NCBI RefSeq assembly: GCF_963506605.1
Contig: NC_083276.1
Location: 61,876,001-61,940,000 of the forward strand
Reading direction: 5' to 3'
Source of the DNA: Zootoca vivipara
Taxonomy: Eukaryota
Length of the DNA stretch: 64,000 bases
Part shown: positions 7,164 through 62,536 of the stretch, one piece after another
How the letters are laid out: each line of letters opens with the position of its first letter
How positions within the stretch are numbered: position 1 is the stretch's first letter
Position numbers and translations under genes: made by a program
The notes under the pieces: model-generated
Databases searched by the model: none
What the model saw: the letters and a program-made list of their open reading frames with translations, nothing else
Told to the model about the DNA's origin: nothing

Positions 7164-7533
7164 ATGAAGATGAACACAATTCTCTGAGTTATGTGTTGCT
7201 AACCTAGGACCCTCCAGCTGTTGCTGAACTACAATTCTCATTATCCCCAGCCATAAAGTCATGACGGCTCAGGGCTGACTAGAGTTGGAGAGCTGTAGCT
7301 TCTCCACCCGTCATAAGTAAATAACCTTCTTCACAGAGAGAAACTCTGAAGCCACTGAGAATGTGTTCATTCCCTAAAGAAAAACTATATATTACCATGC
7401 CTAACAGTATATTCCCTATGCATGTCTACTCATAAGCAAGCCCCACTAAATTTAATGGAGTTTACTCCTCAGTAAGTATGACTAGGAATGCAACTTAAAC
7501 TCACAGCATTTTCTAACACACACAAACACACTA

Positions 7534-7685
7534 AAATAAATAAAATAAACCTTCTGAAGAAGTGTGCATGCACATGAAAGCTCATAGCAATGACAAACTT
7601 AGTTGGTCTCTAAGGTGCTGCTGGAAGGAATTTTTTTATTTTATTTCGACTACGTCAGACCAACACGGCTACCTACCTGTAACTA
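7534..7685 (+). mobile_element. Penelope-like element terminal fragment with hammerhead core
   Basis: ctgaagaagtgtgcatgcacatgaaagctca...ttagttggtctctaaggtgc; matches the reverse complement of 38979-39122. Confidence 0.75.
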
Positions 7686-8489
7686 AAATAAATAAAGTCA
7701 CCATCTTCACTCTGTTAAGTAACTCCTCCACAGGGGGTTTTCAACAGCTACACTCCATTTTCAAATGCCTAGTTTAGAAACACTAAGTATTTTAGATTTC
7801 CTTCAGTTTTCATCCAGTTTATTTTGGACCTCTTGTTGGCCACACCCAATATTTAGAAAGCAATATGAGCCTTAAAAGTTGAAGTAAGCCTAACATTTCG
7901 AAAGCTAATATTTAAAAAGTGCAATAAAACCAAAGCAAAATTGGACTATAAATATAGCCTTAGCTGTAACTAAGCCAACAAGAATAGCATGTTCAAAACT
8001 GTCTAATTCTACATAAAAATAGTTTCAAGTATTACTGCACATTTTATACCAAAGTATTTTTTAAAACTTACTTAACAGTTTCTAACAAGGACAAAATGTT
8101 GTTCTTGCAGCAACAATTGAAAAATAATTACATAGTTGGGTGCAAGCTTGAAAACATGCAACCACATGCCAAGAAGTAAATAGATCCCATTGAAGCACTT
8201 GATAGGCCTCAAGAGACTAGAATATAATCTTAATGTACCTCAAATTAACAATTTTACAGATGGTTTTGAGGTGGAAAACAAGAATAAATACAAAAACTGC
8301 CTAGTATTTCTTAAAGCTGGAGAATAATTATGGTTGATTTAAGTTGCTCCTAAACTGGAGGAATATGATCTTATATCAATGAAGATAGGACTTTATTCTT
8401 TGAGGGATTCAAACTGTTAAGTAAAGCTATCCAATTTGGCTTCAGTTGACCTTCCTTTCTTCCTAGGACACTACCTAGAATGGTGTGGT

Positions 8490-24819: not shown

Positions 24820-26450
24820 TCTGCACGACCCCACGCGCGCTTCCGCTAAAGCAAGTCCCATTGAATTCAATGGGACTCGCTTCTCAGGTAAGCGAAGGGT
24901 ACGCGCAGCAGCTCTCGATTCGCCGCAGCGGGGCCGATCTTCACGCAGGTGAAGCTTCGCAGTCAGGCCTGGGGCAAACGAAAGGAAAGAAAGAGGCTCC
25001 TTCCCGCCTCCCCCCCCCCTCCATCAGGCCAGGCTGCGAAAGCGCACACAACCTGTTTGGCAAGGTGAAGGCAAGCGCAACCACCAACTCCCGACCCCCC
25101 CCCCCGCGTCGCCTTCCCCGCCCGACTTACAAGGTGTGGGTGAAGGCGCTGAGTCTCTCGGGCACGGCAGTGAGCCCTTTCCCGGAGCAGTCCACCCCGC
25201 CGTCCCCATCGCAGCTGCAGGAAAGCGGGCAGGGAGGAGGGGAAGCTTCTCGGCTGGGCCCAGGCAAGCTCGCGAAGCCCCAGGCGAAGAAGCCGAGCAG
25301 CGGCAGGCAGCGCATCGCGAGAGCCGCCCTCGGCGCCAAGACCTGCCCGCGGGGTCGCTCGGGCAACCCGGGGAGCCGCCGAGATGGGGGTCTCCCCGTC
25401 GAGGGGGAAAGGGCCAAATCCAGTCAGTAGCTCTCTCGCTCGCTCGCTTCCTTCTCCGCGGGCCCTTCTTCGCCTGAGCGGAGTCTTTGCTATAGCGGCC
25501 GGCAGGCTGCCTGGCTGCCCACCTCAGCGCTCCGCGTCAGCAGCAGCCGAGTCCTCTTTCCTTTCCCCTTCCTCCTCCCCTCAGCAAAATCCCCCCGACG
25601 CTTCAGCGGCTCCCCTTCCTTCCCGCTCCATGGAGAGGCGGCAGCTCGTCGTCAATCATCTCTCAAGCGAGCAGGTAAGGACGCGCCCCGCTGGGCTCTG
25701 CCATGGCAGCCTCGCCGAGCTCCCCTCCTGACGCCGCCGACGCCGCGTGTAGCGCAGCCTCCCCGCTAGGAAGTGGACCCTGCAGCCATTCCAGTGCTCG
25801 CTCGCTCGCCCGCTGCGCTTCGCCTGGCCAGCAGCCTGCCTGCCTTCTTTCGCCTTCTAGGGTTGCACAAAATGCGGACGGCTACTGCGTGCGCTCCTCG
25901 CCAACCCCGGCGCCGGCGCCGGCGCCTGCCGCTGCTTGCTGCTGCGCTATGCAGAACGACGAGGTGTGTATGCTAATGAGGAGGACGCTGCCGCCCGCCC
26001 GCATTGGTGCAGAGAGAACCTCGGCCTGATAAATATGCAAATATTTCCACGCACGTTTCCAAAAAAAAAAATCTCGGCAACGTCCTACGGGAGGGGGGAA
26101 AGCGGGCCTTCATTGGCAAGCGGAGCAGTGAGTGGGCGGGGAAAGAGGTGCTGAGTGACATGGAGGGCGGGGCGGAGGGCGGCTTCGGGAAAAGAGAGGG
26201 GCTGCCCCGGCTTGGGGGGGGGGGGGGAGACTAGGTTTCTTCGATCCACGGTAGAGCCGCGCGTTGCGTGCGCATTGCGTGACGCACGGCTGCTAGCGGA
26301 AGCTACCGGCTCGTCCGGGATTCCGCCGGGAGAGGCGCGAGGAGGAGAGGCTCGCTCGTGCGCCCGGGCCTGGGCTGCAGGCTCCGGGTGAGCAGAGCGG
26401 CGGCTCCACTTCCAGCAAGGAAGAGCGCGCCAGTGGCCGATTGATTGCAA
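24820..26450 (-). promoter_or_regulatory. LGR4: LGR4 CpG island / promoter / 5'UTR
   Basis: Very GC- and CpG-rich. CCAAT boxes (attgg at 26003-26007 and 26112-26116), octamer ATGCAAAT at 26035-26042, GC boxes near 26133 and 26166. Confidence 0.85.
25131..25315 (-). CDS. LGR4: LGR4 (leucine-rich repeat GPCR 4, R-spondin receptor) coding exon 1: signal peptide plus LRRNT; the gene continues left of the window
   Basis: ATG at 25315 gives [62 protein letters not shown], matching the LGR4 N-terminus ([30 protein letters not shown] in human). 185 nt, phase-2 end, GTAAGT donor at 25130-25125, CpG island, next to LIN7C as in other vertebrates. Confidence 0.95.
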
Positions 26451-38205: not shown

Positions 38206-38978
38206 CATATTCCTTCCGATGCAGTCCAGAACTGTTGGAGAGGTTGTGGGAATAAAGGGGCTTTTTTCCAATTCATAGTGTGAATGTTCACAGGTTGCTT
38301 TATTCTGGAAATATGGTTGCCAAATTTAGAACATTAGAACAGATGTTATTTCATATGTTTAGGTTTTGTATGCCCTGCTTTTAGCTGGATATGTGGTTGA
38401 ATTTTTGCTATTATTTATCTCGGTGGTTCCACAATGATTTGAAAATAAAGGTAAATCTTTAAGAAAAATATCAGCCAGATGATGTGTTGGGTGTTCCTGT
38501 GAGGAACAAGGAACAGTTATGGATACTATATCCCACCACTGGCAGGGTCATGGGGACTTTTGTATCATTGTTACTCTCTGTATTTCTCTTTTATAGCCAA
38601 TTAAAAACCTTTTTAAAAAGTAGTCACTTGGTTCTTCCTTCCTAGAAGTACTTTCCTGTACCTGCCCTGCTTAGCCAGCAGCAATCAGTCAGAAGTTAGC
38701 TTCAGAAGAGAAGGGTCTTTACTCAGTGGCAGAGTGAGTTGCCTGCAGAAGATCAACAGTTCAACTCCAGGCAGAATCAAGCCTCTTGTCCAAAACCTTG
38801 GAAAGCTGCCTCCAGTCAACACAGGTACCAGTCAACTACCGTAGATGGACCAATGGTCCAAATCTATAAAAGGTAGCCTCCTAGAAAACAGGGGGGACCA
38901 GTTGTTGTCCCATCATTTCTTACCGCTGGTCATGCCAGCTGGGAATGATGGGAGTTGGAGTCAAACACCATTTGGAGG

Positions 38979-39251
38979 TAGGTAGCTGTGTTGCTCTGAC
39001 GTAGTCGAAACAAAATAAAAGAAATTCCTTCCAGCAGCACCTTAGAGACCAACTAAGTTTGTCATTGCTATGAGCTTTCGTGTGCATGCACTCTTCTTCA
39101 GGTGGTTTATTTTATTTATTTTCCTTCCAGTAGCACCTTAGAGGTACAGGTATCTGAAGAAGTGTGCATGCACACGAAAGCTCACACCTATGACAAACTT
39201 AGTTGGTCTCTAAGGTGCTACTGGAAGGAATTTCTTTTATTTTTTGTTTCG
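38979..39251. mobile_element. Penelope-like element insertion: inverted pair of terminal repeats inside an old hAT MITE
   Basis: Inverted repeat of about 100 bp (39003-39101 vs 39154-39253); 12-bp flanking duplication accatttggagg (38967-38978 / 39252-39263). Confidence 0.8.
39148..39189 (+). ncRNA. Candidate minimal type-I hammerhead ribozyme (Penelope-associated)
   Basis: AGGTAT-CTGAAGA-A-GTGTGC(AT)GCACAC-GAAA-GC-TC-ACACCT: conserved core, perfect helix II, palindromic AGCT helix III, helix I 5/6 paired. Confidence 0.6.
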
Positions 39252-39939
39252 ACCATTTGGAGGGTCACAGGTTAGCCACCCTTGCTATGAAAAACCGTAC
39301 CGGAGACATATAAAATCTCTGTAAAAGATGTAGGTTGGCTTGTCCCTTTCCCCCTTCCTGGTCACATTCAATGAGTTGAATGTCTCTACAGATTTCTTTC
39401 TTTCACACTTTACTTGCCTCCACTGTGCAAAGAAAGGCCACGCTAGGCACATCTACACACAGTATTATTGATGCCATTTTAATTGTTGGGCTGTTATTTG
39501 TTTTTATGTGGAGGAGACCTCGAGTACTGCATGTATTCCCAGGTACACTTCAATCGAAACAGAAAAGCTTGCGTAGGACAAACATACCCCATTTCTCACA
39601 TAACGGTATCTGGTTCTTTCACTCTTCAGCATAATAAATCTGAAATAATGGCTTTTATTACCACAGGAGCATTGATGTTCTCAGTAGAAAACCATTGTAA
39701 TTTGAAGCCCTAATACTTTCTTAGGTATTACCGTAGTAGTACAGTACCATACTAATTCTGAACTTGCAAGGATAAACCCTGAAGTGTATTATGTGGAAGC
39801 CAGGAGAAGTATTGAGAGAAAAGTCTCCCAAATAAATATACTATAATGTGCTGGCCACCTTACAAGGATAGTATGAACTTTTAGCTTCATTTGTATCAGT
39901 AACACAATAAGGAAATAGAGAGAGTACTCACACAGCAAG

Positions 39940-42900
39940 AAATATGAAATTTCAATTCTTTATTTTCATGTTCCTAAAAAATGTACAGGGCCCTCAAGCA
40001 GCAATTAAGTACATAAAGACTACATTACACACACAGTATTGTCTGTTTTAATTTTTGCTGGCTATTAAATTATTGCATATGTGCACACACCAATACAATG
40101 TAGTCATTGCACCTGTTCAGTAGTATCTTATATGTTCATTTCTTGATTCTCCAACGAATCTAACTTTACTTTAAAAACTGGCTTTCAACCTGGGCTCAGG
40201 ATCCCATTTGTATTGCAGTGACTAAGAAAAAGAGAGACCAGTTTTAAGTAGACACACACACATCTATCAGGCTTTGTGCCTCTTTCACAGTTTCTACTGA
40301 TCCAAATTTTGGATATGAGATGGGTTTAGCAGCACATCTTTTACACACTGCTTTTGATTCTGAGAAAGACAGAGGCAAAATATATTTTGCCACTATCTGG
40401 CCATTTGCTACACACCAGACTTTAATCCAAAAGGCCTGGAGCCTACTGAATCCATATGCCAGGCTTGATAATAAAACCCCCTAGCAGTGCAACCATATAC
40501 ATGTCTACTTAGAAGCAAGTCCCATCAAATTCAATGGTGATCAACCCCAGGCAAGCGGCAAAAGGATTATAGCCATAAGCACTTTTCAACAACGGCCCAG
40601 GCTACCTTCAAGCTAACCCTTTTTAGAGTAACAAAACACATGTCTATATTCAGTAAAAGTAGATTAAACTATTTTTATTATAGTATTTGTTTGACCCTAT
40701 TCTTTTTACTATAGAAACCTCCAACACAAATCTAGTATTATATATAATTAAAATAAAATACTTCCTGATTGGCCCAACTACTTCTTTTGGTCTCATTATT
40801 TTAAATATTAATTGCTCCATAAAAAATATACAGTCCATCAACATGGTACAGCTGGTTGCCTTCTGCAGCTGGCTACATATTTAAACCGTGCAATTCAGTG
40901 CTCACTTATCTAAAGGCTCACCCACACTTACCTTTTGCCCTGCAGTTTCCAGGCACAGATCCTGCTTATAAAAGCTCTGTGTCCAAATGTTTGTTTGTTT
41001 TACCCCAGAACTTTCCCCACAAAAATGGACTCTTTAGTGCTCAGTTGGAACAAACGCCAGTTTGGGTTTCCTGCAGATTGCTATTTGTGCCAACTGAGCT
41101 TTAAAGAGCCGGCTTTCACAGGGAAAGCTCTGGGGCAAAAAGGAAAAAAGGTGCTCATACATGGAGCTTTAAAGTGCAGGCCGTGCCTGCAGAGAGCAGA
41201 GTAAAGGTACGTATGGATAAGCCCAAAGTGACAAAAAAAGACAAAATAATAATACATGCTTCATGGCTTCAGTCACTAAATCTTCAATTTACTGTAGGCT
41301 TATGCTGTCTAAATGCTCAAATGATTTAAGGTTACTTGAATCAACTTTCCTAGATACGCCCCCCGTCATCCAAACAAATGTAAGATTTACGCTGTCGTTA
41401 GAATAAAAAATCTACTCTCCTGATCATTTATATTGGCACTCTAGTTATATTTGACTGCATGTAGTTCATGCAGAGGAGACATGTTGCAGAACACTTACTC
41501 CTATCCACTTGGATGCATTTACAGCTGAACACTGACATCCAGTGGATAACCAGGCTAATGCTAGATATACCAAGCCAGGAATGTTCAAGTTTCATCAAGG
41601 TAGCCCTTTTTTAGTTCTTTACTAAGGGAGGAAATTGAACCACTGGCTATTTTCATCTCAGGCAGAGCAGGGAATAGTGGCAGCAGATTAGTGAGGAAAG
41701 GGTGGAAGCAGGGCTCCATGCAGCGCTTGTACAACTGAAGCTTTCAAGACAGGGGTTCTAAGAAAAGCAGAATAACTCTCTTTTACATACACCCCTCACA
41801 AAAATGATTTTCCTGCAATGTTGCTAGGCTGAAGATGTCAACATAATGGCTTGAAGCTCAATCAAAGCGATTGAGGGAAGGCAACATACTGAAATTCGGC
41901 AAGAAAAGGTTTGCCATCCTGGGCAAGCTTACTCAGAAATAAATCCCAATAAAATCCATATTCCTGAAGCAACATGGTTCAGTGTAGTTTCCACTGTCCA
42001 TCGATCAAACTACTGTCTCTCTCTGGATAAGCACTGGCAAGATAGTTTCTTGGCTCAAAAAAATTAACTTGAGAATTAGAGACTGGTCCTTTGTGTCATC
42101 TTTCTGAACAGCTGAAAGTGGCGCAAATGCTTCCAGGATTAAACTTTACAGTCTATAAGCAAGTTTAAGTAGTGCTCTGTTTAAATAAAGTTGGAAGATT
42201 TAACCCGGTACAGTAACATGAGCAGCAATGAAAGCATCTATAATGCAGGTCAGTAATGTCTGCAGGAACTCATTCTCCACTGCCACTACAGTTATCACAC
42301 AGGTCTAGCAAGCTGACTGACAATTTTAGTGACCACATCACTACCAACGACAAGATTTTTTTTTAAAAAAACCACATTTGCAAAAGCGAAGAGTCTCTTT
42401 GCTAACTGATCTTCTAAACCCCCAAAAGATGAACTTGTACAGTTGTGGGGCTCAGCTGAAAATTACATGTCTCCAGCTGCTGCAAGTTCTTTGTTTTGGC
42501 TTGGCAGCTTATGCTAAAAGAGGGAGGCAACTTTAAACTTAAACAGAGCTTCAAGGGTTTGCAGTTTTGAGGTAGAGCATCTGGAAGCCATGGCATGAAG
42601 GAACTATATGTTGGTCAGGCATTTTCATCCACAGTAGTCTGAAGGGATAAACAGGAATCTAGTTGCAAAGCACAGCCCACCACAGTATAACTTTGGCAGA
42701 TCACCAGCCAAATGAATCTCTTTATAGAGATTCCCAGACTCTAGAAAAGGATATATTTGCACTCCAGGTGGATATTTTCTAAGCACCCTAAACATACTAG
42801 CTCTTTCTTAGCACAAGCCATCTGCTGAAACTTCAGTTGTGGATTTGCACTTACTTTATAGACAGTTTGGGGAGGGGGAGGGGGAATCCATATGTGATGT

Positions 42901-43915
42901 ACCAAAATGCTATCCACTTTGGGTTAAAAGCATGCCCAGTGGATTTACACAAGCAAGGAATGCCTTTTCTGATAGAGAGTAGTGTCTGCTGCCTGAGTGT
43001 TTTTACAAAAGAATTTGCGGTATCTGTTAGCTTTTCTGTGTCACTATGACAACTGCAAACAGCATACTGAAAGAACTCTGATGCTCTAGTAAGGAAGAGC
43101 ACACCACCCACTAAGGTACCTGATGTGGGTCACATCCATCACTGTTAAGAGAACAAGTAGATGCAGTTGCAGAAGTAACTTACAATAGAAGAAAGTCTGG
43201 AGTACATATACAATCTTTTCTGCACTGCATGCAATTTTACCTTACTGAATATAAATACACAACTACAGTCAGGTATGCTTTCCACTTTCTCCAAGTATTC
43301 AGAAATTAGTACAAAAGTATCTAAATTATAGGAATGATTGCTGGTAGTGATGTCAATCACTGAAACGTTAAAAATAAGAGACTGCCTGTTACCAATTATT
43401 CACAAAAGAGGTAAGAAAGTGTCCAAGATGTCATTAACCATATAAAGTTATGATTGAGAACATGCATAGAAACTTGTTCATCAAAAGCACTAATTGTACT
43501 TGACCACATAATTATGACTACCTGTATGTAGAAGACTAAATTTAGTGTCAAAAAGAGTAAAACTTGTTTTATATCTGTATCCAAAATAAATATTTCCAGT
43601 TTTAAGTAATGCCAAATGGGAAAAAAGTACTAGAAAACAGATGTTACAAATGCTGAAAAAAGCTTATTAAAATGTATATTAAAAACACTTTACAAATTTG
43701 TTCTGATGGTTACAGGTTTGAATGGTAAATAAAGGATCTGTAAAACCACATAGCTACAAATGCCCATGTAAACTTTTCTTCTCAGAAGCATTAAGATGTT
43801 CAAGAGTTATTTGTAAAAGACAAAGCGTTAACAAAATTAACATCCTTTTCTAATTATAAGATGACGTTTCCAGACAAGCGAAGTTCATGCTTTTCCTTAA
43901 GCTATATGTAAAACA
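39940..43915 (-). other. LIN7C: Probable long LIN7C 3'UTR (~4 kb)
   Basis: AT-rich, relatively repeat-poor stretch after the stop, ending at an AATAAA followed by GU/U-rich sequence. Mammalian LIN7C also has a multi-kb 3'UTR. The end point is inferred. Confidence 0.55.
39959..39964 (-). terminator. Candidate distal poly(A) signal AATAAA of LIN7C
   Basis: tttatt on the plus strand. The minus strand downstream reads CTTGCTGTGTGAG...TTATTGTGTT (GU-rich element). A second AATAAA lies at 40674-40679. Confidence 0.55.
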
Positions 43916-45330: not shown

Positions 45331-45667
45331 TAACAGACTATTAGTAATAAACTATTTTACTAACATCTTGCTAATGTCATTTCAACAAACTTGGGATCCA
45401 ATTCTAAAATGTGTATCCACCTGCTTTATTAATTAAAAATGTTTCTTTGTGTAACAGCAGGCTTCTATCAGTGCTAGTGAAGTTAGAATTGCAAATCTAA
45501 AACACACTCCATAATATTTTACTCTCCATTATGATTTGTAAAAGGAAAACATAAACCTGTTTTTTCATACTGCATAATACACACAAGACCAAGCAATCAA
45601 CATCCCCTCAATGCCCTCAAGCGGTCACAGGTAGCTACTACAAGTGGAAGTTAAATTCCATCCCTAC

Positions 45668-45877
45668 CACTCCGTTTACAGAAAGAAGCTGGTCTCCACG
45701 CTTCAATCCCCCGTGTCTATCAGCAATACCACCTGGGATAATTCGGGATATATAGATTGGAGAATTTTGCTCTTTGCCGCCCATGATGTTGAATCCGAGC
45801 CCTTCTTCTGTTTTTGGTAGTTCAACGACTCTGGGATGGGAATGACCCTCACTGGCAGCAAAGGCAGCAACAGTGGC
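45668..45877 (-). CDS. LIN7C: LIN7C exon 4 (PDZ domain; [34 protein letters not shown]...LLSVNGV)
   Basis: TTTTGCAG acceptor, 210 nt, GTAGGG donor; GLGF PDZ motif. Confidence 0.97.
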
Positions 45878-46789
45878 CTGCAAAACATGGAAATCTCATT
45901 TTCTTCCCCATAGGTCACAAGGTTTGGAATCTTACTGATTGTCTTATCTCAAAGGCAAATATTTCAAAGCATCTTGCTAAATACTGCCAATACAAGTGTA
46001 TTGCAAATGTACTTCAGAGTATTTTCAATCTCTGGGCTGCTGTTCCGAAGATGGTTTATACTCCAAACCATGGGAAAACAAAAGGCAAATAAACTAAACA
46101 TATGCACTGTTTTACGTATAACTGCATTTTCCTTGATGATACATGGACAAAGACGAACAACCCGTTCCCCCTTGCGTGTGTTTTGAAAATACACATGAGT
46201 TCCTCATAACAGATGCACTACTATCCATTTTTAACTTGGGCACTGGAATCAAGTAAACAAATGAGAGTCATATTACACAACAAAATGCTTTCTAAGCAGA
46301 GGCAGTATTCCTCACCCTGTCCTGAACCCCCTTCAACATCCTCATAGTAACATGCGCTGACAATCCCAACCCTCCACATTCTTGTAATGTGGGAACACCA
46401 GGCATTTATCCAATGCACTGACTGTGTTCAGCAAGAATGCTATTTTAGCATCCCATGCATTGGGGTAGGAAGGCAGTCAATAAACACGTAAAAAGCTTCC
46501 GCATGAGAGTGCATTAGTGAACATTAACTGCTTCAGTGCATTGACAGAAAAACAACAACTTTAAAATAGGGAACTGCTATAGGAGAACTTTGTCTTTGGT
46601 AAGGAGCCCTTTCATTCTTCCCAGTTAATCTTAAGCCAATTGTTTAAAGTGTTTGTTTCGCGGATATACTCATGGAGCTCAAAAGCACAGCTCACTGCAA
46701 TATTTTCATAGCTTAATGCTTCAGCTTTTATAGATTGGAGCTGCCAGATTAGCTTTAACATATTAACCCTTCCTAAATAGGGCTCTTAC

Positions 46790-46861
46790 CTTGGCTGTGG
46801 CATTAGCTCTCACTTCTGGGCTACTGCTGATGTCCACAGTCTCATACACGTGCTCATATAC
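46790..46861 (-). CDS. LIN7C: LIN7C exon 3 ([24 protein letters not shown])
   Basis: TTTCTAAAG acceptor, 72 nt, GTAAGA donor. Confidence 0.96.
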
Positions 46862-47115
46862 CTTTAGAAAGAAAGAAAAATCAGGTATGTGATTTATTGG
46901 ATAGGGGATGACTAAATCAAACCACATTAATATTATTTCCAAACGAACTGTGTGGATTGACTATGCATGCATTGAGTTGTGAACTAGGAAACTTGGTTTG
47001 TCATTCACTATTACCTTTTTTCTTGTAATCTCACTTCAACAGAAGGCAATTCCCAGTGTAGCTCCCAAATATTAACAAGAAGACACTGGTCTTCACACAC
47101 TCCTCAAAAACATAC

Positions 47116-47234
47116 CTCCCGCACAGCATTGCAGAATTCACTTTGAAGGACCCTTTGCAAAGCCTGTAGTTTTTGTGGGGGCACTTCTCCACTCCTTTGC
47201 AACTTTTCCAGCAACTCAATAGCCCGACAGATGT
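47116..47234 (-). CDS. LIN7C: LIN7C exon 2 (L27 domain; [40 protein letters not shown])
   Basis: TTTTACAG acceptor, 119 nt, GTATGT donor; frame continuous with exon 1. Confidence 0.96.
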
Positions 47235-48678
47235 CTGTAAAAAGAAAGGCAAGGAAAGATAATGAACTACTAAAATCTACTCAGAGGGTAATGATACTGG
47301 GCTAGTGAATCAGAACCATGTGTGATCAGTCTATATACCTCAACTGTGTGGGAGCCACTCATAGAAATGTGGTTCCCACACAGCTAGAGTGACATTCAAA
47401 AGCACTCCTTCCCATTCATCTGGAGCAGGAAAAACCCAGTACAGATCTTGTACCAACTTGCTCTTCAATGTTTGTTCTGTGACTAATGAGCATCAGACCA
47501 ATATACTTGTCAACAAAATCCAAAGGATAGAATCCTGATGATCATCAGCTCTCCTGTTTCAGGCAAAGCTTTTTCCTTGCAATGCACACCTATTAGGGAT
47601 TCTTTATTACAAATATTTCAGTGGCAGACAAACAATCTGGACTCCCTCTACCATTCTTCCTTTGTAATATGTAGATGCAGAATTAAACGCCATCCCAAAG
47701 CAGCAGCGTAAATATTGCTCTAGGTTGTGTTCAATATTCACATGCTTAGCTGACAAAGTCTGATCCATGAACCGTCTATGCTCCAGATTAGAACATACTC
47801 CTGGAGTCACTAACAAACAATGCACATGGTTCCCAAAGCAGACAGCTCTGTGCAAAATGTTCCCTCGGGGAAGAAAATGTGAATATAGTTGCTGTAACAA
47901 GCTTAGGGCCCATCTTCCCTTCTTGAAACTGCTTGAATAGAGGGAAAGACCACAGAGAACATTTTATGCAAACGATTAAGTTAAAAGGTGGCTCAAGGGG
48001 CAGAGGACACTGATAATACCTTTGCAGTTGACTAGAGACCAGAGCCTTTGCAAGAGTACATTTCCATAGGATGATCATTGGAACACTGAGAGTCAGACAT
48101 GGACCATTATGCAATGGGCTGTTGACAGGAAGCTAAGTACAGATGTTATTGCTGCCGGATACACCTGCCATCCCAACACCAAGACTTCATGGAAACACAC
48201 AGCAGTTTAACCTTCTCTCCACTATCAGTTCTAATATCTTCCTTAAATATTTGCTTCCACAACCAAGCACTCAGACAGATAGTATACATTAAGCATTCCA
48301 GCCCTTTCTTAGGTCACTCACAGTTGTAGTTCATGTTACAAAATAACACGATACTTCTCCTAAGTTGCCAATATTACAGAGTACTAACTTCTATCTGTTC
48401 AGTTTAAGTGAATACCTTCATTCAAAAGAGCTACGATGGATTTACATCTTCCAGAACTAGGGATGGGATGGGTGCATGAACAGAAAATTGCTTGAGAAAA
48501 AGTTTTTATACTTCTGTGTAGGGCTGTGCAATAAATAGCCATATTGTTAAATACCGGTACTGAAATAATATTGTGGTAAGTGTTTCAACAAGGCAATACA
48601 CCACCGGTGAACAAAACGTGGAATTTGCAGGCACTGTGTATCCTGCTTTGTTTGCTCTCTCCCTCCTACCTCCTAAAC

Positions 48679-48814
48679 CAGGCATCTCCAAACTGCGGCC
48701 CTCCAGATGTTTTGGCCTACAACTCCCATGATCCCTAGCTAAGAGGACCAGTGGTCAAGGATGATGAGAATTGTGGTCCAAAACATCTGGAGGGCCGAAG
48801 TTTGGGGATGCCTG
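48679..48814. mobile_element. 136-bp palindromic hAT MITE
   Basis: TSD tcctaaac / ccctaaac. Confidence 0.9.
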
Positions 48815-48902
48815 CCCTAAACGATAAGAAATAAAGATAAGCCCCCAACACAAACCAGCTCTGAAGGTATCTTTCCAATTAGAGCTCAGCTAATTATGCA
48901 GA

Positions 48903-49011
48903 AGCTGCGAACATGAGATTGACCAAACTGCGGGAGGCAGTGGAAGACAGGCGTGCCTGGCGTGCTATGGTCCATGGGGTCACGAAGAGTCGGACACGAC
49001 TAAACTACAAA
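48903..49011 (+). mobile_element. BovB/RTE LINE 3' tip (LIN7C intron 1)
   Basis: Same tail; 11-bp TSD aattatgcaga. Confidence 0.9.
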
Positions 49012-50763
49012 AATTATGCAGAGCCTGCTAACAATTCAGGAGGAAACCCCCTTGGCTAGACAATCAAAGATCCAGGGCAAAGGAAAGAATGAACTGGAAA
49101 GCACTTCTTTCTTCCCTCACCAGTGAAAGCATTTTCTGGTGGTTCCCCCTAAATAGCTTCCCTCCATATTAAAAAGGAAGGGTGTTGGGTGTTGTTTTAT
49201 TTATCTTTTTGATTGATTGCCCTCCCTTCCTTTGATAAAAAGGGAGAGGCTGATGGGATGTGGGCTTTTGGGGGGGGGTAGAATGGAGAGGAGAAGATTT
49301 AGCTGGTTGCCTCATGCTGAAATGGGAGGTTGCGTACTGTGTGAGAATGATAGGGAAGGTGTTTTTTTAGTAAGCAGTGAAAGCAAATGTCTGTCGACTC
49401 AGAAGCAAGCCCTACTGAATTCAATGGTGGGGCTTTTGCATACATAGAGTCCACTTAGACCTCTGAGTGGGGAAGCAGATGCGGCTTGATTAGTAAATCA
49501 CTTAAACTACTCATAAATTAGTTGAAAATATATTAAATATTATATATGGAAGTTTATTTAGTATTTTTTATTAAATCTACTACTTCCTGACATTTTAAGG
49601 CCCTCCACCACTTCAGGGAGCCTCGTCAAGACCCTCAGCTGCTGCAGGGAAGTGTACACCTTCTGCCACGGCGGGGAGGTACACTGCGACATTCTGCTGC
49701 TGCGGGGAGGCCTGGAAAGGCTCTCTGCTGCTGCGGGAAAATGCAGCACACCCTCCACTGCTGCAGGGGGGGTATGGCGGTACCCTCTGTCCCTTTGGGG
49801 AGGGCCAGCAGGCCCCTCCGCCACTGCAGATATATAGCGTGATATATCGGGATATTGTGAAATTTAGCTGGTGATATATTGTGATGTTGAAAACCAGGTA
49901 TCGCCCAGCCCTACCTCCGTGTTTTCTTCTTCCACATTCTGGTTAAAGGACATGAAATAAAATGATTACTTGCAAGCAATTGCCAAAATCTTCACTATGG
50001 AGCATGGAAATAATTAAGTCATCTGTTGTTGTCTCCGTTACCCATCAAAACAACAACTTAGCAAAAAAAATGTATTTCCCAAAGCTTTGTCTTTGAAGAT
50101 TAGAAATAAAAACACAGCCTTTGCATGACAAAGAGCAGAGCCAGCAGCTGAGTCCAAGCATCCTATTTTTATTTGCAAATATTACTTAATTTTCCTTGAA
50201 TGACTGAGGAGCAAAGGATAAAATGTTGTTCCAAACAAATATGAGGTTACAATAAGCCACTACTGTATAATGAATGTTAGAAGTTTCAAAAACAAACAAA
50301 CCCAGCCATATTTGGAAAACTAAAACATGACAACTGATTTTTCAATTATATGGGTTACACAACATCCATTCATGGGAGAATATCATCATGGCTTAAACTG
50401 GCTCAGTTACACCCTCCCTTCTATTTCTGAGAATTCCTGGGTTGTTAAGACCCAAAAGGTCAACTGTTACTTAAGAGTTCCTATTGAATTTTGCCTAGCA
50501 TGGACGTTTTGAAAGCAGTACTCTCCAAGATAGTAAAAGAATTTCAATAAGGCAAGAAGAATTTCCCAGAGATGTTGGCATATCCCCCATCCTTTCTTCA
50601 GTGCGAGCTGCTGACCCAGTTCTGTTTGGAATCATACATGTACAAAGGGGGGGGGTGTTTCTGGGAGTGGCAAGAGATTTAAAGGCTGAACATCAGATAA
50701 CGAACAGTACTTCTGGGGGGGGGGTTGAGCAGCAAAGTCATGCAGGGTGCAGTGCTTAAAGTT

Positions 50764-50853
50764 CATAGCTGCCAAGTTTTCCCTTTTCTCGCGAGGAAGC
50801 CTATTCAGCATAAGGGAAAATCCCTTTAAAAAAGGGATAACTTGGCAGCTATG
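50764..50853. mobile_element. 90-bp hAT MITE (CATAGCTGCCAAG family)
   Basis: TIR catagctgccaagtt; 6/8 TSD; near-identical to 60217-60306. Confidence 0.85.
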
Positions 50854-51210
50854 TTAAAGCAAGCTGCATGGGTGATGCTGTTTGACTTCATTCCATAACT
50901 AATGAAGAGGTCAGTCATCAGGGCTACTAAATCTTGTCCTCTGTCATAGCTATACACAGACACTACATTTTAACCTGCTATTTCCTTTTTCTTTATCTGA
51001 ACTGTTCCCTCATAAAACACAGGATTCCCCACCACCCACCCCACCCTGGGAGCTTAAGACATCAATACTTTGACAACTGACTAAAAAATAGCCTACTTGG
51101 TCCTAATTTTCCAAGTTTAGTTTCTATTGAAATACTGTTAAGATATAATGTACATTTCTTTAACAGCACTGCAAAGTAACAATTATTCTGTATTCTTAAA
51201 AAAGTCATCA

Positions 51211-51283
51211 TTTGTATCAGCAGTTCTGTGAAAACTTTGTATCAGCAATTCTATGAAAACTTTGTATCAGCAATTCTATGAAC
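51211..51283. repeat. 25-bp tandem repeat, about 3 copies
   Basis: tttgtatcagca(g/a)ttct(g/a)tgaaaac units. Confidence 0.9.
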
Positions 51284-51482
51284 CTGCCCAAACCCTGTGA
51301 TCAACTGAGGCCCTTCTTCATGAGCAGTGCTAGAAATTCGCCAGGCGCCAGGCATGTTTTGCTACTGATGCAACTCCAATTGTGACCGCGTGGAGATCTC
51401 TGAAGGCCAGGTTGGCGACTGACATCTCCATCTGGCTGCCCCCTCTAGCTTTCTTAAGCAGGTAAGCAGAAAAACTTAATTG

Positions 51483-51655
51483 CATTTATATCCCACCTTT
51501 CTCTCCAAGGAGTACATGGTTCACCCCCTCAGTTAATCCCCACACCAACCCTTGAAGGTATGTTAAGAGCCCAAGGTCACCCACTGAGAGGGGATTTGAA
51601 CCCTGATCTCCCAAGTCCTATTCTGATTCTCTAACCACAACACCACACTGGCTCC
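51483..51655 (-). mobile_element. Older tRNA/L2-tail SINE (Squam3/MIR-like)
   Basis: Reverse complement reads gagccagtgtggtgttgtggttagag...ggttcaaatccc...gtgggtgaccttgggc. Confidence 0.6.
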
Positions 51656-52919
51656 CTGCAGTACTTCTGCCATGGGGCAGCTATACAAATTAAGTAGGTA
51701 AATAAATATAGGGAAAGCAAAATGTCATTTGGGGAAGGATTTGAAATATTTTCCTTGAAGCTTGAATTTGCTTTATTCTGGATTGTTTTAATCTGATGTT
51801 TTAATGTGTTGTAATCTGCTTTAAGATATTTTCTTTAAAATAAAAAATGATACAGAAATGAATGTTGATGATGACAATAATTAAATTCATTGTAAACAAG
51901 ACACCTAGATATTCTGTTTTGATGGCCGTAACTAGGTTTAAGGTGTCATTTAGTGATTAGCTATATATCTGAGTTTCTAAGGTAACAAGGCTAACAGTGA
52001 TTTAATGCCTAATGAGATATTTTAACCCTCATCTACCAGGTGCAAGCTAAAGAACCACACAAGCTCTGAGGAATTTATATATATACACACAAATATGTTA
52101 TAAATAACATATGCATTACAGTTCAGGAAAACTCAGAGCTAAAAGCCTGAATCCTGTTTAATCACACCAGTTCACCTAAAAGTTTGGGGACCTGCAGCAG
52201 TTCTTAAGATTCAGTACATAGCCTTTTCTGTAAAACTCAGCTCAATGAGGACTGAGCATATTCAGTGACCACAGGATGTTGACCCAAAGGGGGCAGAGGG
52301 TGGTGGTGGATAGAAAGGAGCACCCTGGAAAAAGAGTACAGCTGGCTGGCTGCTAGACCTCCTTGATATGAGCACTCAATGCGACAACATTTTGCTGCAG
52401 CGCTGTAAAAAACTTAACCCACTAAATTTGATTCTGGGGCCTAGGAATCTGTTATTTCAGTCTGCATTAGCATTATGCAGTCACAGAGAACCCTCTTCCC
52501 CTCACAGAGCAACAGTTCTCCAAGTTCCCTGGGAAGACATACTGACGGTTAAACCACTCTGAGAAGTGCACATCCCTCAAAGGAATAGGAGGTATCCTAA
52601 AAGCACTCAGCCCTCTTAGCCCACGACACTTCCCAGTCCCAGGATTCTTCGGGGGGAAACCATGATCGTTTAAAGCAGCATGATGCTCTTTAAATGTACA
52701 GTGCAGATGGGGGCCTAGATGCTTCTAGGCTCATAAATTAGACCCTCCCAACTAACTATAGGTAGTAGCAGCTCACAGTGCATTTTCCACCGAGGCCTAT
52801 GAACTCCGATCTAAAACTTCCGTAACTTTACACCCAATGTTGGCACCCAGAGAACCGGCTGGCTCCTTCCGAGAGCAGCAGCCCAACCTGAACTTCCACA
52901 GGGCCCTGTGTTGTCCATT

Positions 52920-54060
52920 AACCTCCTCGCGCACCCCGACCCACAGGGGAACGCGCAAGCCACAGTCCTAGCTCAGCACCAGCTGACTCGGACCAGGCAG
53001 AGAAAGAAGAAGCCGAGGCTGCTTTGACAGACGGGCGGAGGGAGGGAGCCAAGAACAGAAGAAGATCCCCGCCGGGCCGGACGCCACGCCCCCCATCTAG
53101 TTCTCTCTCGGCGGCCAAGCAGCCGCGCGCTCCCCACTTGCGACGGCCATCCCAAGCTAGTAAGCCTAGCAGTTCTCTAATCCTCTTCTAAAGCCACCTA
53201 AGCTGGAGTACTGCTGCGCATTATCTCTGGATGCGGGAGCGAGGGGGTGGGGGAAAGAGAGGCAAGGGGATCCCCTCTCCCCCCTCTTGGCGGAGGCTTG
53301 CGGGGCTGCTGCTGCTGTGGACAAGTGGTTGCCCCTACCCTGAGCAGCCTCAGGACCTAATAACGCTTTGGGGGCTTAGCCTGCCCGCTCCCCAAGGCGA
53401 ATACTATAGGCATACACACGTCGCCCCTGCAGGGCATCGCTCAGCAGATCTGCCTCTCCCGTTCCTGCAGCCGAGGCCAGCCGTTCCCCGCCCGCTCGCC
53501 AGCCTGCCTTTGCTCTCACCTCTCTCCAGCCGCACCGGCTCCCCCAGCGCCGCCATCTTCTCCTTCTCCAGCTGCTCTCGGGGAAGTGACGCCGGGCAAG
53601 AGGCGGCGCTGCTTCCAGGACGCACCGAGGCGAAGGAGGGGCGAAGGCCGCGGCTTTTTCCCGGCTCTCGCCGGAACTAGCAAGGCGCGCGAGGGGATGG
53701 CGCGTCGGGCGCTCTCATTCTGCCTCTTTCGCGCCCTTAGAAAGGCGGGCGGGATTCCGGAGCCCGTTTGCCCAGGTGGGCGGAGTGGGAGAGAGAGGGA
53801 GAGAGAGAGAGAGAAGTAAATGGGGCGCGTGTGTTACTGGTTTTCAAGTGGGGTCCAAAGGCCGAGAAAGTGCGAGCAAGAGGTTTGCCCAGCACGGATG
53901 AAAACGGAGGTGCCCTCCGAAGAGCAGAGAGCTCCTCCCAGGGTGGGTGCGACGCGCTTGCCAGGTGAGATAGGCAGGCAACGCAAAGAGAATTCGGCTC
54001 CCGCAATTTCGAGCCAGATGCCTTTGGGGAAACGCAAAACAGGGCACGAGTGCAAGACTG
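52920..54060 (-). promoter_or_regulatory. LIN7C: LIN7C CpG island / promoter
   Basis: CpG-rich around exon 1. YY1 motif overlapping the start codon (cgccatctt, 53551-53559) and an ETS/CRE-like GGAAGTGACG at 53582-53591. Confidence 0.85.
53520..53556 (-). CDS. LIN7C: LIN7C exon 1 (MAALGEPVRLER)
   Basis: ATG at 53556 in AAGATGGCG context, 37 nt, GTGAGA donor; matches the LIN7C N-terminus. Confidence 0.96.
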
Positions 54061-62406: not shown

Positions 62407-62536
62407 NNNNNNNNNNNNNNNNNNNNNNNNNNNNNNNNNNNNNNNNNNNNNNNNNNNNNNNNNNNNNNNNNNNNNNNNNNNNNNNNNNNNNNNNNNNNNN
62501 NNNNNNNNNNNNNNNNNNNNNNNNNNNNNNNNNNNG
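62407..62536. other. Assembly gap (130 N)
   Basis: Run of N. Confidence 1.

What the first reader, a model, noticed from the sequence alone, without database searches (positions are those of the whole stretch)
39148..39189. Near-intact minimal hammerhead ribozyme in a Penelope-like insertion
Seen: AGGUAU-CUGAAGA-A-[GUGUGC-AU-GCACAC]-GAAA-GC-UC-ACACCU. It has the catalytic core CUGANGA...GAAA...UH, a perfect helix II, helix I paired at 5 of 6 positions, and a palindromic AGCU in place of helix III. Established: Penelope-like elements carry minimal type-I hammerheads whose palindromic helix III favours dimeric cleavage. Inference: this copy could self-cleave after C39183, probably as a dimer. 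Standard gene annotation would miss it.
Basis: partly seen in the sequence, partly recalled or inferred. Interest (0 to 1): 0.7.

Follow-up and report, generated by a model that had tools for sequence, protein, structure and literature searches.

The report
Decayed, hairpin-locked Penelope hammerhead copy
This self-cutting-RNA motif is one of about 18,000 copies of the same core spread by a Penelope-type jumping gene, and this copy likely does not cut, because it has a broken stem, was not seen transcribed and sits behind its own mirror image, which was likely patched in from a neighbouring copy 31 kb away.

Summary
The motif is real: a minimal type-I hammerhead at the end repeat (pLTR) of a young Penelope-like retrotransposon with a Neptune/Nematis-type linker; intact 925-codon copies exist and the 31-nt core occurs 17,895 times in the genome. 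The pairing is published, reptiles included. This copy is a poor ribozyme candidate. An inner helix I pair is broken (162 of 17,895 copies), its two outer pairs come from the insertion junction, the sixth helix II pair is impossible, and it is the right arm of a 273-bp head-to-head insertion predicted to fold into one hairpin (helix probability 0.00). It lies between genes, antisense to both neighbours; its unique flanks had almost no reads in three RNA runs. Copies' 5' ends pile up at the ribozyme's edge, not at the cut site. One local oddity: 98 bp of the left arm, including 19 bp of junction and host flank, match a solo copy 31.5 kb away (junction found twice in the genome), while the tail matches the right arm: a templated patch. 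This scan noted hairpin-locked copies and similar patches on other DNA before. Cleavage was not tested.

The parts
39148..39189 (+). The reported minimal type-I hammerhead motif; predicted cut after C39183; mismatch at C39185; bases 39148-39149 are junction filler
38979..39251 (.). Whole 273-bp head-to-head Penelope-like insertion, predicted to fold as one hairpin (-157.7 kcal/mol)
38967..38978 (.). Left copy of the 12-bp target-site duplication
39252..39263 (.). Right copy of the 12-bp target-site duplication
39150..39251 (+). Right arm: pLTR leader from the first base of helix I to the short (tail-less) 3' end
38979..39024 (-). Original outer part of the left arm with the long 'tail' end; shares the rare T-run C (39021) with the right arm (39234)
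39025..39122 (-). 98-bp patch matching the solo copy at 7533-7630: second hammerhead core without helix I plus 19 bp of that copy's 5' junction and host flank; switch point lies between 39022 and 39034
   Evidence: (I8)
39121..39143 (-). Remainder of the original short left arm (element positions 55-77), identical to the right arm; 2-nt overlap with the patch
39144..39149 (.). 6-bp filler at the head-to-head junction
7545..7681 (+). Solo 5'-truncated copy of the same family, likely donor of the patch; lacks helix I and has a changed base before GAAA; own 15-bp target-site duplication at 7530-7544 and 7682-7696
38894..38978 (.). Older short repeat (families D10/D14) into which the element inserted; continues after 39263

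Best explanation
The motif is a passenger copy of the hammerhead at the start of a Penelope-like retrotransposon's leader, left in a short head-to-head insertion, and this copy is likely inactive. Shown: the family has intact RT plus GIY-YIG frames with the hammerhead about 110 nt ahead of the start codon on the coding strand; insertions end at two fixed 3' positions, one on each arm. Inferred: the element's enzyme cut both strands 12 bp apart and primed two cDNAs at its two internal start sites on one leader RNA; the right cDNA ran to the RNA's 5' end at the first base of helix I (so the template was uncut), the left stopped at position 55, and the ends were joined with a 6-bp filler. During or after this, the left arm broke at position 77/78, invaded the homologous solo copy 31.5 kb away, copied 98 bp past its junction and rejoined by a 2-nt overlap. 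That patch put a full antisense copy upstream of the motif, which is predicted to lock it in a hairpin; a later or template-borne T-to-C change broke helix I.
For: 17,895 exact cores, control 0; 37,498 matches to a downstream anchor. Intact tandem pLTR-ORF-pLTR copies, RVT_1 and GIY-YIG above Pfam cut-offs. 130 of 133 sampled arms had a scoreable 3' end (3 ran on into a tandem ORF): 62 short, 68 long; 38 of 40 head-to-head pairs had one of each, p 7e-10. 21 of 94 5' ends within -53..+45 fell at -6..-3 (p 1.5e-10), 3 of 94 at the cut site (p 0.74); a TATA-like box and initiator-like word lie just upstream. Helix I variant in 162 of 17,895. Helix I and II probability 0.00 in 12 of 12 folded stretches that start at or before 39070. 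Unique flanking bins had depth 0 in 11 of 12 run-bins on both strands and 1.07 on one strand in the other. Patch: junction pattern occurs 2 times in the genome, at 7533 and 39122; shared variant in 31 copies, two-variant 45-mer in 7; the T-run C shared by both arms but not the solo copy occurs in 10 copies; the middle fragment ends at 77, inside the marker interval 68-80; 12 of the 19 shared junction bases are part of the solo copy's own target-site duplication.
Against: No cleavage assay. Folding is equilibrium prediction without tertiary contacts or protein; an RNA starting at 39102 or later keeps helix II at 0.43-0.97 (9 of 21 stretches). RNA evidence is three samples of one study, unknown tissue, about 6% of each run read. 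No compensatory covariation within the genome (2 of 200 listed variants). The arm sample is the first matches on one contig, not random; one duplicated block (L156) is counted twice and at least one 'pair' (L127) is probably two insertions. 5' end calls can be shifted a few bases by microhomology. The start of transcription is inferred from DNA only; RNA reads showed no pile of ends there. The patch is one event; its timing and enzyme cannot be read from the sequence.
Confidence: 0.85

Rival explanations
1. This copy is a working ribozyme that cuts as a dimer or with help from the element's protein.
For: All conserved core bases, the extra base after A9, the G10.1-C11.1 pair and the palindromic 15.2-16.2 are present (features from PMC4209133). 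In isolation four outer helix I pairs form at 0.71-0.98. A one-core dimer fold scored -13.6 kcal/mol, as for an intact copy (-13.8). The Anolis Poseidon hammerhead cut only when protein was added (PMC11167929).
Against: Broken second pair of helix I; hairpin sequestration; antisense to both neighbours and flanks not seen in RNA; the only nearby partner core lacks helix I and is on the other strand; the lowest-energy dimer pairs the two palindromic helix II segments with each other (-34.2) rather than forming the active fold; minimal hammerheads were inactive as monomers and weak as dimers in vitro (PMC4209133).
Confidence: 0.07
2. The left arm was not patched by DNA repair; the element's own reverse transcriptase switched, during integration, onto RNA or DNA of the neighbouring solo copy and then returned to the first template.
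For: The structure is the same under both routes; L1 makes chimeric templated insertions during integration (10.1101/2024.08.27.596794); divergence between patch and donor (4 of 98) is of the same order as between arms.
Against: The switch in is guided by about 45 bp of homology and the donor is on the same chromosome 31.5 kb away, as expected of strand invasion; L1 templates were reported as typically within 15 bp of the site; the solo copy is antisense in a host intron and no RNA data were laid on it.
Confidence: 0.25
3. The similarity of the left arm to the solo copy is chance or an assembly mix-up.
For: The shared junction is A-rich; the pair was noticed after the fact among window copies.
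Against: Junction pattern 2 in 1.44 Gb plus three shared variants; the two differ at 8 of 147 aligned bases, unlike a collapsed copy; contigs of run X15 cross both outer boundaries of the insertion with no other letters, though none spans its middle and X15 may be the assembly's own sample.
Confidence: 0.03

Closest known systems
Minimal hammerheads (min-HHR) in pLTRs of metazoan Penelope-like elements (Cervera and de la Pena 2014, PMC4209133; parts 1-2 of 4 of the text read)
   Same: Type I, helix I of 4-5 bp, extra base before helix II, G10.1-C11.1, palindromic 15.2-16.2 in place of helix III, thousands of solo copies, pairs on opposite strands 100-700 bp apart; reported for Neptune elements and for turtles and snakes.
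   Different: Helix II here is 5 bp and wholly palindromic; the family is very uniform (85 of 98 identical helix II) rather than variable; this copy is damaged.
Poseidon element PAc of Anolis carolinensis (Frangieh et al. 2024, PMC11167929; parts 1-2 of 4 read)
   Same: Lizard PLE with pLTR hammerhead, two internal RT start sites that define the optional tail, both strands cut and extended, uncut RNA used as template.
   Different: Here the protein has a CX4CxxC linker (Neptune/Nematis type, absent in Poseidon per PMC8557442) and the hammerhead lies about 110 nt before the start codon instead of overlapping it.
Canonical EN+ PLE insertion with inverted pLTR, tail at one end and TSD (Pen2a_Av, PMC3846280 passages; Craig et al. 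2021, PMC8557442 passages)
   Same: Head-to-head arms, tail on one arm only, short TSD, TATA plus initiator-like word in the pLTR.
   Different: No ORF between the arms; left arm is a chimera of two templates.
Templated insertions at DNA breaks and in L1 integration (PMC11724301 abstract; 10.1101/2024.08.27.596794 passages)
   Same: A short stretch (<250 bp) of other genomic DNA copied into the insertion, one end by synthesis and the other by end joining.
   Different: The donor is a homologous sister copy 31.5 kb away, entered through homology, and fixed in the germline.

Membership tests
Minimal type-I hammerhead of PLE pLTRs | Conserved core CUGANGA, GAAA and UH | tested here: met
Minimal type-I hammerhead of PLE pLTRs | Extra base after A9, G10.1-C11.1 pair, stable helix II | tested here: met
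   A39161; helix II 5 bp at probability 0.96-0.97 in isolation
Minimal type-I hammerhead of PLE pLTRs | Palindromic 15.2-16.2 replacing helix III | tested here: met
   39179-39182; 97 of 98 sampled cores keep it
Minimal type-I hammerhead of PLE pLTRs | Helix I of 4-5 contiguous pairs next to the core | tested here: not met
   Not met in this copy (second pair broken); met in the family (95 of 98 cores keep the pairing base; intact copy 0.77-0.89)
Minimal type-I hammerhead of PLE pLTRs | Located in the pLTR of a PLE | tested here: met
Minimal type-I hammerhead of PLE pLTRs | Covariation in helices | tested here: inconclusive
   2 of 200 listed variants compensated (200 of 342 matches listed); motif 37-38 of 38 identical across four subfamily copies against 25-36 of 40 upstream, and the only change is at the free position N7. 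No other vertebrate genomes were available.
Minimal type-I hammerhead of PLE pLTRs | Self-cleavage as dimer or with protein | not testable with these tools
   No pile of read ends at the cut site in 3 of 3 RNA runs, but such libraries are poor at showing it
Rfam hammerhead families | Covariance-model match | tested here: not met
   No hammerhead family at gathering score or at E up to 10 for this copy or an intact one
EN+ Penelope-like elements (parent family) | Single ORF with RT and C-terminal GIY-YIG | tested here: met
   RVT_1 46.6 bits, GIY-YIG 23.6 bits, both above cut-off
EN+ Penelope-like elements (parent family) | pLTRs, tandem and inverted arrangements, optional 30-40 bp tail | tested here: met
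Neptune/Nematis clades | CX2-5CxxC linker before the GIY-YIG domain and CCHH motif | tested here: met
   Seen in P0001; definition from PMC8557442
Neptune clade specifically | Placement in an RT phylogeny | not tested
   No named reference sequences were held; 'Neptune' over 'Nematis' is recalled from its occurrence in vertebrates
Non-LTR retrozymes | Tandem units each with an intact type-I hammerhead | tested here: not met
   Arms are head-to-head, not tandem; definition from 10.64898/2026.07.22.740005 part 1 of 5

The most novel reading that the evidence does not exclude
The Penelope enzyme itself jumped, in mid-integration, from its RNA onto a sister copy 31.5 kb away on the same chromosome, copied it past its junction into host DNA and returned to the exact base it had left, so these elements can recombine with neighbouring copies while they insert.
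Probability: 0.2. Interest if true: 0.5.

Novelty: new member of a known kind. Interest (0 to 1): 0.2.

Why it matters
As a ribozyme this copy matters little: it is one damaged member of a published class with about 18,000 exact core copies here. The family is useful as a natural record of the poorly understood Penelope insertion mechanism (two start sites used once each per insertion; templates uncut and ending at the ribozyme's edge), and the patched left arm is a cleanly marked single case of a sister copy tens of kilobases away serving as template. An intact young pLTR copy, not this one, is the right substrate for asking what the hammerhead does.

Tried and rejected
Rfam scans found no hammerhead family; the microRNA hits below threshold only reflect the inverted repeat. 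The idea that copies derive from cut RNA was rejected: 3 of 94 5' ends at the cut site. A 6-bp helix I as a family feature was rejected. A spliced leader as source of the junction bases was considered and dropped because the base context before helix I is not a conserved AG in the subfamilies. An inversion between 7.5 and 39 kb was rejected because both target-site duplications are intact. Covariation searches at two helix II pairs gave 2 of 100 and 0 of 100. No indexed run on record as RNA held the stretch (no RNA holder listed); raw runs were laid instead. Laying reads on an intact leader gave reads from passenger copies on both strands, ORF depth 3 or less, and no end pile at the cut site or the presumed start: uninformative. 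A metagenome scan gave three distant PLE proteins (29-32%), not used. Lunse et al. on dimer cleavage was not held; it is cited only through a review passage (PMC6765202). A genome-wide count of copies with an extra 5' G was not obtained; only the sample speaks to it. Paper searches for twin priming or templated insertion in Penelope-like elements listed no paper whose title or abstract start describes a patch from a sister copy; subscription papers and supplements were not searched or read.

Full report
Observation. A descriptor requiring the core, a helix II of at least 4 bp, a palindromic helix III stub and at least 4 of 6 helix I pairs hits once in the window and never in 300 shuffles. Three details weaken 'near-intact'. 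Helix II can form only 5 pairs because the sixth would close a 2-nt loop; the helix I mismatch is the second pair from the core, leaving the innermost pair at probability 0.056 against 0.77 in an intact copy; and the outer two bases of the 5' strand are junction filler.

What it belongs to. The motif is the right arm of a 273-bp head-to-head insertion (38979-39251) with a 12-bp target-site duplication, inside an older short repeat. The 31-nt core occurs 17,895 times exactly in the 1.44-Gb genome (control 0) and a downstream anchor 37,498 times. Following longer copies led to intact elements: pLTR, a 925-codon open frame, pLTR, in tandems of about 3,030 bp, with RVT_1 and GIY-YIG domains above Pfam cut-offs and a CX4CxxC linker plus CCHH motif, the mark of Neptune/Nematis elements (PMC8557442 passages). 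The hammerhead is on the coding strand about 110 nt before the start codon. Minimal hammerheads in such pLTRs are published, reptiles included, and were inactive as monomers and weak as dimers (PMC4209133); the Anolis Poseidon hammerhead cut only with protein and was not needed for insertion (PMC11167929).

Family behaviour. I sampled 133 arms around the first listed anchor matches on contig C1 (69 loci; not a random sample). Of 130 with a scoreable 3' end, 62 were short and 68 long, and 38 of 40 head-to-head pairs had one of each (p 7e-10; one duplicated block is counted twice, one pair is probably two insertions). This fits two internal RT start sites used once each. Of 94 5' ends between -53 and +45 (C3 = 1), 21 fell at -6..-3, the first bases of helix I and just behind a TATA-like and initiator-like pair of words, and 3 at the cut site. 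So templates were uncut and probably began at the ribozyme's edge; the start site is inferred, and RNA reads did not show it. The motif is 37-38 of 38 identical among four subfamily copies whose upstream 40 bases share 25-36, and the only change is at the free position N7, which suggests selection on the family motif. Against this, no covariation was found inside the genome (2 of 200 listed variants).

This copy. Its helix I variant occurs in 162 of 17,895 copies. In every one of 12 folded stretches that start at or before 39070, both helices have probability 0.00; in the 9 that start at 39102 or later helix II survives at 0.43-0.97 but the inner helix I pair stays at or below 0.06. The site lies between a LIN-7-family PDZ gene and LGR4, both on the minus strand ('LIN7C' is recalled from synteny, the best hit was LIN-7 homolog B), so the plus-strand motif is antisense to both. 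In three raw RNA runs of one study (about 6% of each read, tissue unknown) the unique flanks had essentially no depth, reads on the insertion mostly ran on into other loci, and a stranded transcript covered 39965-43000; I read that as the LIN7-family 3' UTR ending about 700 bp away, which is inference.

The left arm is a chimera. Typical pairs have matching arms (22 of 37 identical over 40 nt, mean 0.8 differences against 3.7 for random arms), but these two differ at 5 of 80 positions. At three of the five the left arm matches the solo copy at 7545-7681, and it also carries 19 bp of that copy's 5' junction, a pattern found exactly twice in the genome; 12 of those bases belong to the solo copy's own target-site duplication, which makes the solo copy the donor. 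One shared variant occurs in 31 copies genome-wide. Further out, at position 81, both arms share a base that the solo copy lacks and that only 10 copies have. The 23-bp middle fragment is identical to the right arm and ends at position 77, inside the marker interval 68-80. The simplest history: both arms were first made from one template, the left one short (55 to tail); 98 bp from the neighbour were then patched in at 77/78 by homology at one end and a 2-nt overlap at the other. DNA repair by one-ended strand invasion is my preferred route; a template switch by the element's enzyme during integration is not excluded. The patch is what created the second core and the full hairpin.

Comparison and verdict. 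The motif works like, and its family belongs to, the minimal PLE hammerheads; this copy fails the helix I criterion. Insertion layout matches published PLE structures (PMC3846280 and PMC8557442 passages). Templated patches are known for L1 and for DNA breaks. Earlier notes of this scan describe hairpin-locked copies, twin-primed arms, ends at the ribozyme edge and local patches on other DNA; I had measured these features before reading the notes, except the hairpin fold, which was run. Supplements of the cited papers were not read and may hold this family's motif. Verdict: real but ordinary; interest 0.2.

Noticed in passing
window 7530-7696: Solo truncated copy of the same family with a 15-bp target-site duplication, antisense in what is probably LGR4 intron 1; likely donor of the patch at 39025-39122.
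   Followed up: yes
window 25130-25378 (-) and 45641-53555 (-): LGR4 exon 1 and a LIN-7-family PDZ gene; a stranded transcript covers 39965-43000, with a poly(A)-signal-like hexamer on the minus strand at 39959-39964.
   Followed up: partly
L065:4581-7611, L066, L067, L068, L070: Many intact 925-929-codon Penelope-like frames in at least three subfamilies, often with identical ends: the family looks young and probably still active.
   Followed up: partly
L171:871-2665 (G000:C1:2777825-2779684): Four hammerhead-bearing units in direct tandem with a period of 598 bp, a possible retrozyme-like array where dimer cleavage could be tested.
   Followed up: no
L002:1600-1630, L003:1595-1612: Short repeated re-copies of the leader's first 10-12 bases at head-to-head junctions, as if the reverse transcriptase restarted several times at the template's 5' end.
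   Followed up: no
window 39162-39175: Helix II is a perfect 14-nt palindrome; two molecules are predicted to pair through it (-34 kcal/mol) rather than through the 4-nt helix III stub, which could confound dimer assays.
   Followed up: partly
L022:2235-4037: Long C2H2 zinc-finger open frame (601 codons) next to a family copy.
   Followed up: no
window 62407-62535: Stretch of 129 N.
   Followed up: no
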